A stretch of 64,000 nucleotides of DNA from Alphaproteobacteria bacterium (GTDB lineage Bacteria > Pseudomonadota > Alphaproteobacteria > RF32 > CAG-239). Numbering within the stretch: the stretch's first letter is position 1; each line of letters begins with the position of its first letter. The notes under the pieces are model-generated. The model was not told where the DNA came from, searched no databases, and was given only the letters and a program-made list of their open reading frames with translations. Below are positions 50,257-63,841 of the stretch, in pieces. Made by a program: the position numbers and the translations under genes. The DNA is taken from NCBI GenBank assembly GCA_017546315.1, contig JAFYXH010000007.1, positions 14,508 to 78,507 on the forward strand. Direction: 5' to 3'.

Positions 50257-50788
50257 TTCCTGTGAACAAATAAAAAAATATATTGAGAGAATTATGTTGG
50301 CAAGCTAACTTTTAAACGGTTTGTTAAGTTTATTATATATATTATGTCAGTTTCATTATTTATTTTTTTAATTGGATATTTATGCTTTGTGTCTACTGTA
50401 TTTAGCATGAATAAGGTGAAGAAGTTTTATTATAAGTGGTGAGCTTTAAAGGCCAGAAAGCTTTAACCCGTTAAAATAATTATCACAGATTGCCGCAAAT
50501 TGCTTTTAGTTATTATTATGAAACCTTTCAGATCTGAAATTGCGCAATTATAAGGCGAGGCATTATTTACTATCAATTCCCTGTTCGATATAATAATGCC
50601 TTGTTTTAGTGCTTTAGTGTAGTTTATTTATATTTTAGGTGTTATTCTTTGGATAACGCATTTGTTTCATTAGATTTTAATAGATTTTTAACTGTTTTTT
50701 GTCTTTTTGTAAAAAAATATATTGATATACGATAGAAAATTGATTATAATCAACCTATAGCGTGGTGGTTTATATAGGAGAATTTTCT

Positions 50789-51055
50789 ATGGGAACCTTT
50801 TTATTGAATGATATTGGTGAAGTTTTACTTGAGCTTAATTTTAGAATGAGCTTGGATGTGGATTTGTCTTTGGAGATTGATGAACTCAACAAAGAGGCAA
50901 TATTGAAAAATGCTGAAGAAAAAATTAAGATAGGATACGTACACCCCGAACTTATTATCCCTTTAAAGCAAAACAGATACTTATTTGTTGTTGAAAGAAA
51001 TAATCAATTTTATGCTCTAAATAGCAAATTATGTAAGGTTGTTTTTGTGAATTGA
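50789..51055 (+). CDS. small hypothetical protein (88 aa) directly upstream of the HExxH protein
   Basis: RBS aggag before the ATG at 50789; 11 bp upstream of the next gene. Confidence 0.45.
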   Translation: MGTFLLNDIGEVLLELNFRMSLDVDLSLEIDELNKEAILKNAEEKIKIGYVHPELIIPLKQNRYLFVVERNNQFYALNSKLCKVVFVN

Positions 51056-51066
51056 GGTATTGATTT

Positions 51067-60809: not shown

Positions 60810-60886
60810 TTTGTTTTTTGCTTGTTTTTGAGTTATAAATATGGTATATTTTTAAGCATATATGATGCTTAAAATCGGAGGGATGA

Positions 60887-63841
60887 ATGGTTAAAACAAG
60901 TGATTTGGAAAAAGACATTCGAACAATTGCTGATAAGGTTGGAAGTGCTGTTTTTACCTATGACGAAGTACATAATCCTGATGTTGATAATAAATTTAAA
61001 TATGATTATCAAAAAGTAATTGATGAAATATCAAGAATACATGGTCAAGATATGACGGAGGCTTTATTAAAAAATGGTATTTTATCAATACTTCCTGATG
61101 GCGAATACAAAGTTAATGTTGGTAAAACTACAGAAAAAGGTGGTGGAATAAATTATTGGGGGATGGCATTTTTTTCTCGCTCTAAAGGAGATTTTCAAGT
61201 TCATTATCACGAACTAGCTCATTCGCTTCAAGGACATTATGATTTGTTTAATAATAAAACACTTGATGAAATATATGAAAAATCTGGAAAAGGCTTAGAT
61301 GATGAAGAAAAAGAAAAAAAGCTAGCTGATAGATCTACTTTTGGACATTATTTAAAAGAAATGCATTCTGAAAGTTTCTCTAATGCTGCCTTGATGCTTA
61401 GAGCTGAAAATTGGGGAGACTTTGCCAAAGAGGCTTTTAAGGCTTATTATGGTTCTGTTCTTCGAAATTTGAGTGGTCTTTTTGATCCCAAAAAAACATA
61501 TAACACAGGCGATCCTGCCTCTAAATATTATTCAACATATCCAGTTATAAAAGAGACCATTAAGCAAGTCTATCATATTCGCAGACAAAATAAATTAGGA
61601 GACTTTTTTGATGAGAAAGGTGTATTAAATGATGAGAAATTAGCAAGGTTGTCTGAAACGATAGTTAAAGAAAAAGGATATTCTCCGAGAACATTAAAAA
61701 GCTATTTTAATTACAATATCTTAGATGGACACAAATATTTTGAACATGGATGGAAAAGAGATACCATAAAGTCGCTAGCACTCTTTATCCCTGTTTCAAC
61801 TTTGGCTCTTGTTGATATAGGTATAAATGCCTCGAAAAAGATTACAAAAACAATCGACCATAAAAAAATGTTTAAAGAAGAAAAGAAAATACTAAATAAT
61901 TATATCAAAACTCCAATTTCTAAAGATAAATCTTTGGAAGAACAAGCGCTTGAAGCTTATCAAAAAATTTTACTAAAGATGCCTATGATAGATAAGGAAC
62001 ATGAAGGTGCATATATTGGTGTAAGATTAAAAAGAGATCTTGAAAATGCTTATCATAATGGAGGTTTTCCTGATTATTATGTGAATGACTTTAAGAGGGC
62101 AACATCAATGTTTATTGGTGTTAATGGTAAACGTGTTTCAAAAGGGGTTGATGAGGCTGCAAAATATATCAACACTATTTTGAAAGAATGTGGTAAAAAT
62201 CCTTTTTTAGAAACATTGATAAAAACTGATGTTAGTCCTAATGTTTTGCAAAAAATGATTGCAGAAAAGAAAAAGGATAAAACAAAACAAGTTGTCGCTT
62301 TGAATTTAGATGAGAGTTCTAAAGATGGTTTTCGAAACCATCCTGTTCAAAATATGCTTAATCAAATAAGTTTATTTTGTCATAGCCATGGTATTAGAAA
62401 GAATATAGAGTATGGAATGTTTGAAAAATTAGTTAAAACTCCAGAAAAATTTAAGGATGAAAAATTTAGAAAAGAATTGCTTGATCAAATTAAGGTTAAG
62501 AATGATTTTTTGGGAATAAAAAACAGAAAATTAAAAAAAGAATTCAATGTAATGATGGATAGTGTGGCATCTACTTATTTTACCATTAGAGGAAATGATA
62601 AGTTTGAAAAAGCATTAAGTTTTTTAAACAATACTCCTCCTAGCGAGATGGAAAGTGTTGTTTCTCAGCGCGTTATACAAGAAAGGGAAGGAATAGATGT
62701 TATTGCTGAGTTAGAAAAAAGTGCTAAAGCAAATAATTTCCGTAAAAAGGTGCAAGAAGCTGAAGAAAATGTTGATTTTATGAGGGGAAATATTTTGTTA
62801 CATGCTGTTGCTAACAATGAAGCATATACTTTGGAAACTAAAGATAAGTTTTTAAATTTAATGATGGAAACTGCAAACAAGATGAAAGATTGCTCGGAGG
62901 ATCTTAATTATTATCAACGAAATGAATATTTTGGCTCTTTACTTGCTGAAAAACTTAAAGAATCAGATACTTTTAGCAAGGATGATAAAGATTCAATCTG
63001 TAATGACTGCTATGCGAATGTTAATCACAAAGGATTTAAGGAGGCTTTTCTTAGTACATATACGTATGGTGAAGATAAGCCTGAAGTTAAAGTTGAAACT
63101 ATTGAGAAAAAACAAGATGACGTAAAAGCTGATGTTGTTTCAACGGAAAAAGAAGAAAAAGAGATAAAAGTTGAAGTGCTAAAAGAGAAATTGAAAGATA
63201 AGGACAAAGCCGAAATTAAAGCGAAAAAAAATGAATCTATCCCCTCTTCTAATGAATCACCTTTGGTTAAAGAATCTTATGAGAATAAAAAGCCTTCTGA
63301 AGAAGTATTGGTTGATGACATGATAAAAAATCAAAAATTTTCTAGAGAAACATTGAGTGAAGTTCTTAATATTGCGGTTGAGCTTGAACAAAAGAGATTA
63401 AACGGTGAGGATATGAATGGGAAAACCTATTCTGAAGTGTTTATGGATAAGGTTATTGTAAATGAAAAAATCAGTGAAGCAGATAAAAATAAAATCTTAA
63501 ACATGGCTATAAAAACTGAAAACAATGAAATTGAACAAACAGAAGGTGGAAAAAGAATTTATTTTGATGAAAGTAAAAAAGAGCGATTCGAACAGTTAAA
63601 ATTGCGAGATGAATTAAAAGATGCGCTTGATATAAAGCTTGAAGATGGAAAACTTTCTATAAAGATTCCTGAAGATAATAATCTAAAGAGTGAGCTATTG
63701 AGAACTATTAGAGCTCAAGAAGGAATTGAAAATATAAAAAGCACTAAGAAAGATAATAATGTAGTCGAAAATAAGTCTAATACAAACAACAGCTTGACTA
63801 TAAATATGGCTAAATTTATGGCAAATAACAAATCCAAATAG
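60887..63841 (+). CDS. giant hypothetical protein (paralogue B, 984 aa) with an N-terminal HExxH motif and the shared C-terminal module
   Basis: VHYHELAHSLQGH motif about residue 105; C-terminal EEVLVDDMIKN...EGGKRIYFDESKKERFEQLKL...NMAKFMANNKSK is colinear with the paralogue A C-terminus. Confidence 0.6.
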   Translation: MVKTSDLEKDIRTIADKVGSAVFTYDEVHNPDVDNKFKYDYQKVIDEISRIHGQDMTEALLKNGILSILPDGEYKVNVGKTTEKGGGINYWGMAFFSRSKGDFQVHYHELAHSLQGHYDLFNNKTLDEIYEKSGKGLDDEEKEKKLADRSTFGHYLKEMHSESFSNAALMLRAENWGDFAKEAFKAYYGSVLRNLSGLFDPKKTYNTGDPASKYYSTYPVIKETIKQVYHIRRQNKLGDFFDEKGVLNDEKLARLSETIVKEKGYSPRTLKSYFNYNILDGHKYFEHGWKRDTIKSLALFIPVSTLALVDIGINASKKITKTIDHKKMFKEEKKILNNYIKTPISKDKSLEEQALEAYQKILLKMPMIDKEHEGAYIGVRLKRDLENAYHNGGFPDYYVNDFKRATSMFIGVNGKRVSKGVDEAAKYINTILKECGKNPFLETLIKTDVSPNVLQKMIAEKKKDKTKQVVALNLDESSKDGFRNHPVQNMLNQISLFCHSHGIRKNIEYGMFEKLVKTPEKFKDEKFRKELLDQIKVKNDFLGIKNRKLKKEFNVMMDSVASTYFTIRGNDKFEKALSFLNNTPPSEMESVVSQRVIQEREGIDVIAELEKSAKANNFRKKVQEAEENVDFMRGNILLHAVANNEAYTLETKDKFLNLMMETANKMKDCSEDLNYYQRNEYFGSLLAEKLKESDTFSKDDKDSICNDCYANVNHKGFKEAFLSTYTYGEDKPEVKVETIEKKQDDVKADVVSTEKEEKEIKVEVLKEKLKDKDKAEIKAKKNESIPSSNESPLVKESYENKKPSEEVLVDDMIKNQKFSRETLSEVLNIAVELEQKRLNGEDMNGKTYSEVFMDKVIVNEKISEADKNKILNMAIKTENNEIEQTEGGKRIYFDESKKERFEQLKLRDELKDALDIKLEDGKLSIKIPEDNNLKSELLRTIRAQEGIENIKSTKKDNNVVENKSNTNNSLTINMAKFMANNKSK

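What the first reader, a model, noticed from the sequence alone, without database searches (positions are those of the whole stretch)
50260..63841. Accessory, effector-like gene cluster organised around tRNA-Ser
Within about 13.6 kb there is a long AT-rich non-coding stretch, a small protein plus HExxH-protein gene pair, and four tiny membrane-protein genes each with its own promoter and terminator. The cluster also holds a tRNA-Ser, three secreted or orphan proteins on the opposite strand, an AlbA_2/Schlafen-like protein, and two ~1000-aa paralogous repeat proteins, one with a second HExxH motif. A single housekeeping gene (rnhA) is embedded in it. tRNA genes are classic insertion points for islands, and almost every gene here is transcriptionally insulated by its own hairpin terminator. 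No integrase or transposase is present in the window, so if this is an island it is old or degraded, or its mobility genes lie beyond 64 kb.
Basis: partly seen in the sequence, partly recalled or inferred. Interest (0 to 1): 0.8.

Follow-up and report, generated by a model that had tools for sequence, protein, structure and literature searches.

The report
Native variable region, not tRNA island
This 13.6-kb stretch of an uncultured gut/rumen alphaproteobacterium is not a mobile island inserted at a tRNA gene: it is inherited chromosomal DNA that mixes conserved core genes, a ~300-base structured RNA absent from Rfam, and fast-evolving orphan proteins of unknown function.

Summary
Sister species (L089, L088, L101) carry the same genes in the same order. 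GC3 and synonymous codon usage match the housekeeping genes. No integrase and no repeat of the tRNA 3' end occurs in the window or 10 kb beyond it.

The tRNA-Ser is an ancestral neighbour of the HExxH gene. The block p88 / HExxH protein / tRNA-Ser / convergent 242-aa protein also exists at another chromosomal site in distant relatives. AlbA_2 and rnhA are core genes (82-95% identity).

What does vary between species is narrower:
- an array of two-helix micro-proteins
- o236
- two large Lys/Glu-rich proteins, which share only a 200-aa C-terminal module found in just 18 protein clusters among 1.84 billion

Both HExxH families have an invariant HExxH plus a downstream Glu, but no Pfam family and no PDB fold match.

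The "non-coding stretch" holds a ~300-nt element conserved at 70-83% nucleotide identity downstream of the TPR-methyltransferase gene in 15 or more species. It has covarying helices, an intrinsic terminator and no Rfam match. Functions remain inferred.

The parts
50259..50612 (+). Conserved structured-RNA candidate (core about 50317-50612, ~296 nt). Upstream lies a conserved promoter-like block, TTGAGA-17-TAACTT, at 50284-50312. It ends in the intrinsic terminator GGCAUUAUU...AAUAAUGCC+UUGUUUU.
   Evidence: 70-83% nucleotide identity directly downstream of the TPR-methyltransferase gene in all relatives, whatever gene follows. Found in 40 metagenome contigs. Over 36 pairs, 94.3% are paired against 87.0±0.8 in shuffles (0/500), and 13 pairs change on both sides. 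In the central domain, 21 pairs are 90.1% paired against 82.4±1.0. The apical GGCC-loop hairpin covaries. No Rfam match. No conserved ORF.
50789..51055 (+). p88: 88-aa protein with no signal peptide or TM segment, first gene of a conserved two-gene unit.
   Evidence: 59-83% identity in L089, L088, L101, L092 and L094, always 10-20 nt upstream of the HExxH gene. No Pfam, NCBIfam, PHROG or PADLOC hit.
51067..52497 (+). HExxH476: conserved 35-aa N-terminus, one TM helix (often followed by Cys), then a ~420-aa domain, inferred periplasmic, with HELMH (nt 52075-52089).
52585..52791 (+). m68: 68-aa micro-protein with two hydrophobic segments; promoter-like TTGACA-17-TAAATT at 52526.
   Evidence: Orthologues in L089 at 35% and 33%. 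Promoter-like site.
52797..52985 (+). m62: 62-aa micro-protein with two hydrophobic segments, followed by a terminator hairpin at 52996-53035.
   Evidence: 36% orthologues in L089 and L088. Hairpin ΔG -13.6.
53162..53320 (+). m52: 52-aa micro-protein with two hydrophobic segments, with its own TTGACA-16-TAGAAT promoter (53105) and a terminator at 53356-53395.
   Evidence: No orthologue found; weak similarity to m62. Its terminator is 90% identical to the one after m62, 360 nt upstream, which is consistent with a local duplication (D10).
53457..53693 (+). m78: 78-aa micro-protein with two hydrophobic segments and an acidic tail, plus a terminator at about 53701-53739.
   Evidence: Orthologues at 48% in L089 and 30% in L088. 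Shares an SCE[KN]A motif with the m62 family. Hairpin ΔG -24.1.
53802..53892 (+). tRNA-Ser(CGA), followed by a bidirectional terminator at 53935-53961.
   Evidence: ARAGORN and Rfam. The same tRNA follows the HExxH gene in L088, L089, L101, L092, L094 and L095.
53964..54581 (-). o236: most likely 205 aa starting MKRFFF..., with a signal-peptide-like N-terminus. Species-specific orphan.
   Evidence: ORF; called as 205 aa on the source contig. No homologue in any fetched locus.
54768..55007 (-). o79: 79-aa Lys/Ser/His-rich protein with its own terminator.
   Evidence: 58% in L089, 40% in L088, 34% in L101. Terminator ΔG -19.5.
55113..55841 (-). o242: 242-aa protein with an N-terminal signal/anchor, convergent partner of the HExxH block.
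   Evidence: 64% in L089 and 25-29% in L101, L092 and L094, always on the minus strand downstream of tRNA-Ser. Terminator ΔG -20.7.
56019..57083 (+). AlbA_2-domain protein (354 aa): core gene of the clade.
   Evidence: PF04326, E=1e-10. 82-95% identity in all close relatives and 61% in L011, always upstream of rnhA.
57138..57578 (+). rnhA (RNase HI): core gene.
   Evidence: PF00075, E=1e-53. 76-95% identity in clade relatives.
57648..60809 (+). R1053: Lys/Glu/Asn-rich modular protein without a signal peptide. Has internal repeats A (aa 114-218, 232-348) and B (514-644, 710-848), and a C-terminal module (nt 60192-60806).
   Evidence: Only 4 homologue clusters. Repeats. Occupies the slot after rnhA in L089, L090 and L091. 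Absent from L088 and from more distant relatives.
60887..63841 (+). R984: N-terminal ~600-aa HExxH domain (HELAH, nt 61208-61222), a linker, and the same C-terminal module (nt 63212-63838).

Best explanation
The stretch is vertically inherited chromosome of a clade of uncultured gut/rumen Alphaproteobacteria, built from three layers.

1. A backbone kept in the same order in more than ten species: thrS, a glycosyltransferase, a hydrolase, the TPR-methyltransferase, a ~300-nt structured RNA with its own terminator, the AlbA_2 protein, RNase HI, a 237-aa protein and MatE.

2. An old four-part block. It consists of a cytoplasmic 88-aa protein, a membrane-anchored HExxH protein, tRNA-Ser(CGA) and a convergent secreted 242-aa protein. 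This block exists throughout the wider clade and lies between the RNA and AlbA_2 in the window's lineage, most simply through a chromosomal rearrangement.

3. Lineage-specific, fast-diverging additions made by local duplication, gene gain or loss, and domain shuffling. These are the array of two-helix micro-proteins (duplicated together with their terminators), o79 and o236, and the large Lys/Glu-rich proteins R1053 and R984, which occupy a variable slot after rnhA and share a swappable 200-aa C-terminal module.

Inferred function: envelope or exported proteins. Both HExxH domains probably act as zinc-dependent hydrolases, on the basis of an invariant HExxH plus a downstream Glu. The RNA is an independent small-RNA gene of unknown role.

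Shown: synteny, conservation, composition, motif invariance and RNA covariation. Inferred: localisation, catalysis, export, and the direction of the rearrangement.
For: Synteny:
- The backbone order holds in L005-L010 and L086 and in about 30 metagenome contigs.
- The cluster order holds in L089, L088 and L101, with tRNA-Ser 90% identical in L088 and L089.
- The p88/HExxH/tRNA-Ser/o242 block sits at another locus in L092, L094 and L095.
- In L101 the block lies between the RNA and a retained LemA.

Divergence gradient against L089: rnhA 94.5%, AlbA_2 90%, MatE 87%, p88 83%, TPR-MT 67%, o242 64%, HExxH 62%, o79 58%, R1053 51%.

Native composition: GC3 and synonymous-codon z-scores are within ±1.4 for the large genes. 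The lower overall GC comes from codon positions 1 and 2, that is, from Lys/Asn/Glu-rich proteins.

No mobility marks.

Duplication: 40-nt terminators 90% identical, 360 nt apart.

Domain shuffling: the C-module is found on R1053-type and R984-type proteins and on other N-termini. It has only 18 hits in 1.84e9 representative proteins.

HExxH invariance, and weak sub-threshold hits to the zincin families M2, M91 and ATLF.

RNA.

The same neighbourhood appears in 5 further contigs of the same strain group.
Against: - All comparison genomes are MAGs or metagenome contigs, and no closed genome was available. I could not show an 'empty site' strain or rule out mobility genes more than 10 kb away.
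- The direction of the block's movement is not polarised by an outgroup.
- Localisation rests on hydrophobic segments read by eye and a simple hydropathy scan.
- R1053 and R984 have no signal peptide, and no secretion system was seen, so 'exported' is a guess.
- The RNA's 5' end is not mapped, its -10 match is poor, and its single-sequence folding energy is unremarkable (z=-1.44).
Confidence: 0.72

Rival explanations
1. An old, degraded genomic island that integrated at tRNA-Ser and has since lost its integrase and att repeats.
For: - A tRNA gene sits in the middle of a run of orphan genes.
- The slot between the RNA and AlbA_2 holds different genes in more distant relatives.
- Overall GC is slightly lower here: 0.30-0.31 against 0.336.
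Against: - The tRNA-Ser/HExxH/o242 linkage is conserved at a different locus in distant relatives, so the tRNA moves with the genes and is not their target.
- Genes lie on both sides of the tRNA.
- There is no integrase, and no tRNA 3'-end repeat within 20 kb downstream of the tRNA or anywhere in the 64-kb window.
- Codon usage is native.
- Homologues of all families were found only in the same clade.
Confidence: 0.06
2. A toxin-immunity arrangement: HExxH476 is a secreted or contact-delivered metallopeptidase toxin, and the array of small two-helix membrane proteins downstream is an expandable set of immunity proteins.
For: - The number of micro-protein genes downstream of the HExxH gene varies: 4 in the window, 4-5 in L089, 2 in L088 and 0 in L101 and L092.
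- They duplicate locally together with their terminators.
- One family member gave a weak Imm6 hit and one a weak M91 'effector' hit.
Against: - HExxH476 appeared as one gene at a conserved position in every locus examined, is full-length throughout (94-100% coverage) and is anchored by its own TM helix. It has no polymorphic C-terminus and no trafficking domain.
- Many species keep the HExxH gene with no micro-protein genes at all.
- The micro-protein genes have their own promoters and are not translationally coupled to the HExxH gene.
- PADLOC and Pfam gave no support.
Confidence: 0.07
3. R1053 and R984 (and possibly HExxH476) are substrates of a dedicated export pathway, such as a type IV or type I secretion system. 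They would be recognised through the shared C-terminal module and a C-terminal Arg, and would act on host or neighbouring cells. This concerns function and is compatible with the best explanation.
For: - No N-terminal signal peptide.
- Different N-terminal domains carry one conserved ~200-aa C-terminal module ending NMAKFMAxNxxR/K.
- The last residue is Arg in 28/39, 5/5 and 32/39 family clusters, against 2/43 other window proteins.
- One R984-family member carries ankyrin repeats, and the genome encodes other ankyrin proteins.
- These genes diverge faster than their neighbours.
Against: - No secretion-system gene is present in the window or in any fetched flank.
- HExxH476 has a TM anchor, which does not fit one-step export.
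- Lys/Glu-rich repeat proteins can equally be cytoplasmic or structural.
Confidence: 0.2
4. The conserved 50.26-50.61 kb element is not an independent small RNA. It would instead be the 3' UTR of the TPR-methyltransferase mRNA, or a DNA-level regulatory region.
For: - It starts 2-3 nt after the TPR-MT stop codon in the window, L089, L088 and L005-L008, with no terminator in between.
- The proposed -10 element is weak, and the generic promoter scan did not pick it up.
- It contains several palindromes (TTGCGCAA, CAGATCTG) that could be protein-binding sites.
Against: - In L010 and L009 a GC-rich hairpin (followed by a T-run in L010) separates TPR-MT from the element, and L086 has an extra ~45-nt spacer there, yet the element and its upstream TTG...TAnnTT block are retained.
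- Helices keep pairing through changes on both sides, including G-U pairs that would be A-C on the other strand. This points to selection on an RNA rather than on DNA.
- It ends in a covarying stem followed by a T-run.
Confidence: 0.2

Closest known systems
tRNA-associated genomic or pathogenicity islands (for example islands at selC, serU or leuX in Enterobacteria; from established knowledge)
   Same: A tRNA gene embedded in a run of orphan, possibly secreted proteins that differ from what more distant relatives hold at the same backbone position.
   Different: No integrase, no flanking repeat of the tRNA 3' end, native codon usage, genes on both sides of the tRNA, and the same order in sister species. 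The tRNA stays linked to the same neighbours when the block sits elsewhere in the chromosome.
Chromosomal plasticity zones or hypervariable slots in host-associated bacteria with otherwise syntenic genomes (for example the Chlamydia plasticity zone; from established knowledge)
   Same: Fixed backbone positions (RNA-to-AlbA_2, and after rnhA) where lineage-specific, fast-evolving large proteins and small membrane proteins accumulate through duplication and gain or loss, without mobility genes.
   Different: Much smaller (about 6 kb each). The contents have no recognised toxin or effector domains. The organism's lifestyle is unknown.
Zincin metallopeptidases with HExxH plus a distal Glu (gluzincins such as M2/M3, and Pfam DUF6782 'putative metallopeptidase')
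   Same: An invariant HExxH in a helix preceded by β-strands, and an invariant Glu 37-46 residues downstream. The extended motif HEL-x-H-x-x-Q is also present in P0091, a DUF6782 protein that carries the first half of the C-module.
Bartonella Bep effectors and Xanthomonas X-Tfe effectors: varied N-terminal domains joined to a conserved C-terminal delivery domain with a basic tail (from established knowledge)
   Same: The architectural logic. Unrelated N-terminal parts (repeat protein, HExxH domain, others) carry one conserved ~200-aa C-terminal module with a basic last residue.
   Different: No sequence or convincing fold similarity to BID or XVIPCD. No type IV secretion genes were observed. 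Export is untested.
Conserved structured non-coding RNAs of unknown function found by comparative genomics (for example raiA and OLE in Rfam)
   Same: A ~300-nt intergenic element with several covarying helices, conserved loop sequences (GGCC, CCCUG), a fixed genomic neighbour and an intrinsic terminator.
   Different: No match to any of the 4227 Rfam 15 models, even at E≤10. Found so far only in one clade of gut and rumen Alphaproteobacteria.

Membership tests
tRNA-integrated genomic island | Integrase or recombinase gene next to the tRNA or at an island end | tested here: not met
   No integrase, transposase or recombinase domain in any ORF from 48.5 to 63.8 kb or in the next 10 kb.
tRNA-integrated genomic island | Direct repeat of the tRNA 3' end at the distal boundary | tested here: not met
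   The 25-mer with up to 3 mismatches, and 14- to 20-mers with up to 2 mismatches, occur only in the tRNA itself, in the window and in L137.
tRNA-integrated genomic island | Composition or codon usage unlike the host core | tested here: not met
   GC3 and synonymous-codon log-likelihood lie within the range of 38 core genes (|z|≤1.4 for the large genes, ≤2.3 for all but m62, whose GC3 z is 3.6).
tRNA-integrated genomic island | Patchy presence: close relatives have the tRNA with an empty site | tested here: not met
   L088, L089 and L101 carry the same genes around the tRNA. Distant relatives keep the tRNA between the HExxH gene and o242 at another locus.
Zincin metallopeptidase | Invariant HExxH and a third metal ligand downstream | tested here: met
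   HExxH476: H337, E338, H341 and E378 are invariant in 32 sequences. R984: H108, E109, H112, E158 and H160 are invariant in 30 sequences. The role of these residues as ligands is inferred.
Zincin metallopeptidase | Zincin fold or profile match to a peptidase family | tested here: inconclusive
Polymorphic toxin / immunity cassette | Variable C-terminal toxin domain on a conserved trafficking N-terminus, with the immunity gene immediately downstream | tested here: not met
   HExxH476 homologues are collinear over 94-100% of their length. No trafficking domain. Many species lack downstream micro-protein genes.
Anti-phage defence systems (PADLOC) | Match to a defence-protein model | tested here: not met
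   No hit for any region protein, including the AlbA_2 protein.
AlbA_2 / Schlafen-like DNA-binding domain proteins | PF04326 domain | tested here: met
   E=1e-10 over residues 29-164. The C-terminal 190 aa are unassigned.
Type IV secretion effectors with a C-terminal signal | Cognate secretion system in the genome, and translocation dependent on the C-terminus | not testable with these tools
   Only about 90 kb of the genome is visible, and no secretion genes are in it. The C-terminal Arg bias and the shared module are suggestive only.
Any Rfam 15 RNA family (for the 50.26-50.61 kb element) | Covariance-model score at or near the gathering threshold | tested here: not met
   Gathering scan: tRNA only. 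At E≤10 on the window element and on the GC-richer L009 copy, only noise of 12-21 bits against thresholds of 39-70.

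The most novel reading that the evidence does not exclude
Three sequence-unrelated protein families encoded here are the HExxH476 family, the R984 family and the R1053 family. They end in a C-terminal Arg in 72-100% of their members, against about 5% of other proteins in the window. Several share a rare 200-aa C-terminal module. 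They may be clients of one so far undescribed sorting, export or processing pathway specific to this clade of gut Alphaproteobacteria, with the C-terminal module and terminal Arg as the recognition signal. If so, the cluster would be a set of exported host- or neighbour-directed proteins after all, but chromosomally native ones.
Probability: 0.15. Interest if true: 0.7.

Novelty: new member of a known kind. Interest (0 to 1): 0.4.

Why it matters
The main value is corrective. A tRNA surrounded by orphan genes looked like an island, but comparison with about fifteen related species shows native, rearranged chromosome. The region should therefore not be counted as horizontally acquired.

The work also yields three concrete leads in a poorly known but widespread group of human-gut and rumen Alphaproteobacteria:
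- A ~300-nt structured RNA with covariation support and no Rfam family, always next to a TPR-methyltransferase gene.
- Two confidently modelled HExxH protein families with no Pfam family and no fold match in the PDB. One of them is paired with a conserved 88-aa partner and a tRNA gene across the clade.
- A rare C-terminal module and a C-terminal Arg bias, which could mark a sorting signal.

Each lead can be tested with metatranscriptomes or simple biochemistry.

Tried and rejected
- Pfam, NCBIfam, PHROGs and PADLOC scans of all region proteins found nothing beyond TPR/methyltransferase, AlbA_2 and RNase H.
- Profile searches of both HExxH families against PDB sequences found nothing meaningful.
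- Profile-profile comparison of the two HExxH families with each other, and of R984 with a DUF6782 protein, aligned only the motif. They are not demonstrably related.
- Known RNA classes for the conserved element (tmRNA, 6S, RNase P, SRP, riboswitches): ARAGORN reported no tmRNA in the window and no Rfam model matched the element.
- A small hydrophobic peptide gene (32-aa ORF, 50344-50442) inside the element was rejected because its start and frame are not conserved across 15 species.
- A replication origin or dif site was rejected because cumulative GC skew rises monotonically through the region.
- MAFFT-based RNAalifold missed the apical hairpin through misalignment. A covariance-model realignment solved this.
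- Exact lookup of the window's R984 failed because the window differs by one residue from the deposited contig. P0001 was used instead.
- Literature searches for the lineage's secretion systems and for DUF6782 returned nothing. One earlier search only confirmed the ruminant-GIT study as the likely source (PMC8199421).
- Assignment of the clade to GTDB order RF32 is from memory and was not tested.

Full report
SOURCE AND ORGANISM

The window is nearly identical to a 115-kb scaffold of a ruminant gastrointestinal metagenome (ENA ERZ28654406, XIEF21-1 scaffold_45). Its RNase HI occurs with the same neighbours in five further long contigs of that study. R984 differs by one residue from the deposited contig.

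A scan of one genome per species with RNase HI returned seven related MAGs, titled 'uncultured Alphaproteobacteria bacterium' or 'Acetobacter sp. 46_36', at 76-92% identity. After these, identity drops to 74% or less in Hyphomicrobiales and Rhodospirillales. The organism is therefore a member of a low-GC clade (window 33%) of uncultured gut/rumen Alphaproteobacteria. I believe this is GTDB order RF32, but that is from memory and was not tested.

CHECKING THE OBSERVATION

All listed features exist at the stated coordinates, with four corrections.
- p88 most likely starts at ATG 50789 behind an AGGAG, giving 88 aa. This matches the gene call on the source contig and the length in all relatives.
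- The two ~1000-aa proteins share only their last ~205 residues, at 53% identity. R1053 alone is internally repetitive: two A repeats at ~60% identity, two B repeats at ~55-60%, and an A-like stretch at the start of the C-module.
- The four micro-protein genes form three transcription units, because m68 and m62 are 5 nt apart. Clear TTGACA-type promoters lie at 52526 and 53105. CCCC...GGGG hairpin-plus-U terminators follow m62, m52 and m78.
- Strong terminators also follow tRNA-Ser/o236 (shared, bidirectional), o79 and o242. None follows p88, HExxH476, AlbA_2, rnhA, R1053 or R984. The generic scan shows only a mild excess: 8 against 4.6±2.0.

IS IT AN ISLAND?

Synteny gives the decisive evidence.

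In six more distant species (L005-L010), in L086, and in about 30 human-gut and rumen contigs, the order is fixed. It runs thrS(-), glycosyltransferase(-), hydrolase, TPR-methyltransferase, [slot 1], AlbA_2, rnhA, [slot 2], a 237-aa protein, MatE(-), tRNA-Met. Slot 1 usually holds a SlyX-like gene and LemA. In some species it also holds a member of the R984 family.

In the window, slot 1 (50257-56018) holds p88, HExxH476, the four micro-proteins, tRNA-Ser, o236, o79 and o242. Slot 2 holds R1053 and R984.

Three closer relatives show that this content is inherited rather than recently acquired.
- L089 (rnhA 94.5%) has p88 (83%), the HExxH protein (62%), four or five micro-protein ORFs, tRNA-Ser (90% nucleotide identity), o79 (58%), o242 (64%), AlbA_2 (90%), rnhA, an R1053 orthologue (51%), the 237-aa protein (68%) and MatE (87%).
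- L088 has p88, the HExxH protein, two micro-proteins, tRNA-Ser, o79, AlbA_2 (93%), rnhA and an R984 orthologue with the C-module.
- L101 has the block without micro-proteins, inserted between the conserved RNA and a retained LemA.

In distant relatives of different GC content (L092 at 45%, L094 at 33%), the unit p88 / HExxH protein / tRNA-Ser(CGA) / o242-like(-) lies at a different locus, after an AP-endonuclease-2-family gene. The tRNA is thus an old member of a conserved block that has changed chromosomal position. It is not an attachment site.

Other tests agree.
- GC3 and synonymous codon usage of HExxH476, R1053 and R984 are within |z|≤1.4 of 38 core genes. The lower total GC comes from codon positions 1 and 2 of Lys/Asn/Glu-rich proteins.
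- No integrase or transposase is present in the region or 10 kb beyond it.
- The tRNA 3' end has no repeat anywhere in the window or in L137.
- No long flanking direct repeats exist.

The weaker claim, that this is lineage-specific and variable content, holds for o236, m52, the number of micro-protein genes, and which of R1053 and R984 sits after rnhA.

THE PROTEINS

p88 and HExxH476
- HExxH476 belongs to a family of 39 clusters. All are unnamed, all come from this clade, and all are collinear over 94-100% of their length.
- The gene is always preceded by the 88-aa gene.
- The alignment shows a conserved 35-aa N-terminus, one hydrophobic helix (often followed by Cys), and invariant H337, E338, H341 and E378.

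R984 and R1053
- The N-terminal ~600 aa of R984 define another family of 39 clusters, with invariant H108, E109, H112, E158 and H160 and varied C-termini. One C-terminus has ankyrin repeats.
- The two HExxH families are not detectably related beyond the motif HEL-x-H-x-x-Q.
- R1053 has only four homologue clusters.
- The shared C-module is very rare, with 18 hits among 1.84 billion representative proteins. Its first half also occurs on other proteins, among them a DUF6782 'putative metallopeptidase' and an FHA-domain protein.

Smaller proteins and core genes
- The micro-proteins m68, m62 and m78 have orthologues at 30-48% identity, so they are real genes. m62 and m78 share an SCE[KN]A motif.
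- The terminators after m62 and m52 are 90% identical, 360 nt apart, which is consistent with a local duplication.
- AlbA_2 (82-95%) and rnhA are core genes.
- Nothing matches defence-system models.

An unexplained regularity: the last residue is Arg in 28/39 R984-family clusters, 5/5 R1053-family clusters and 32/39 HExxH476-family clusters, against 2/43 other window proteins.

THE 'AT-RICH NON-CODING STRETCH'

This was the unexpected part. The gap after the TPR-methyltransferase gene is conserved at 70-83% nucleotide identity in all relatives. The neighbouring methyltransferase protein is only 45-67% identical, and the downstream gene differs between species.

An exact-pattern scan of metagenomes found 41 contigs carrying the pattern, from human gut and rumen. 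One was a chance hit. In every contig that extends far enough upstream, except L130 where no neighbouring gene was identified, the element follows the methyltransferase gene.

Fifteen non-redundant copies align over ~300 nt. RNAalifold and pair counts give 36 pairs:
- 94.3% paired, against 87.0±0.8 in shuffles (0/500)
- 13 pairs with changes on both sides, against 6.4±1.3 (0/500)
- only 41-54% paired when partners are slid

A long central hairpin is closed by an invariant GUGA/UCAC helix and capped by a conserved GGCC loop, and its stem covaries extensively. After realignment with a covariance model, its 21 pairs are 90.1% paired against 82.4±1.0, with 9 pairs changed on both sides. The model finds exactly one copy per locus.

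The element ends in a covarying stem followed by a T-run on the plus strand, with a conserved CCCUG in the loop. G-U pairs indicate the plus strand. Where a spacer or a GC-rich hairpin separates it from the methyltransferase gene (L010, L009, L086), the element and an upstream TTG-17-TAnnTT block are still present.

No Rfam 15 model matches. The one small ORF in the window copy is not conserved. The single-sequence folding energy is unremarkable (z=-1.44), so the case rests on covariation.

I read this as an uncatalogued small-RNA gene belonging to the conserved backbone. It is not part of any island.

VERDICT

The region is ordinary in kind. It is native chromosome with two variable slots and a relocated conserved block. 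The island hypothesis should be dropped.

The orphan families are probably envelope or exported proteins, two of them with zincin-like motifs. That is inference only. The RNA element and the C-terminal Arg/module pattern are the items worth following up.

Noticed in passing
window 50259-50612 (+); homologues at L089:2333-2762, L088:1210-1568, L005:4684-4981, L086:7488-7787, L009:6875-7154 and in L096-L136: A ~300-nt conserved element with covarying helices, a GGCC apical loop, a CCCUG terminator loop and no Rfam match. It lies directly downstream of the TPR-methyltransferase gene wherever that gene is in view.
   Followed up: yes
C-termini of window 51067-52497, 57648-60809 and 60887-63841, and of their homologues P0001-P0083: The last residue is Arg (tails ..GR, ..DR, ..SR) in 72-100% of the clusters of three sequence-unrelated families, against 2 of 43 other proteins in the window. 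This may be a sorting or processing signal; it is unexplained.
   Followed up: partly
window 3760-8305 (+): A 669-aa protein with seven or more ankyrin repeats (6296-8305) immediately follows an 844-aa ORF with no Pfam family (3760-6294). Another ankyrin protein lies about 7 kb past the window end (L137:20305-20889) and in sister species (L090).
   Followed up: no
L005:6911-7975, L089:8421-9458, L103:7104-8165: Some relatives carry an extra ~345-354-aa gene without any family, inserted between AlbA_2 and rnhA. It is absent from the window, so even this tight core pair is a gain/loss point.
   Followed up: no
window 52504-52545, 53075-53121 and 54655-54704 (the last on the minus strand): Three near-identical promoter-like blocks (ATATTGACAAAA...) precede m68, m52 and o236. 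This suggests a shared promoter type for the small genes of the cluster.
   Followed up: partly
window 23898-24515 (+): A 205-aa protein with weak PilS/bundlin (type IVb pilin) matches, sitting between a 4-alpha-glucanotransferase gene and uvrA.
   Followed up: no
window 21126-23750 and 31974-33782: The only two other proteins in the window that end in Arg (...NNHLR, ...TTKGR). I did not examine whether they relate to the C-terminal Arg pattern.
   Followed up: no
L100:1972-4077 and L133:1104-5315: In two rumen relatives, the slot between the RNA element and LemA holds 2-4 kb of sequence with no similarity to any window protein. The slot's content therefore varies further than the cases characterised here.
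   Followed up: no
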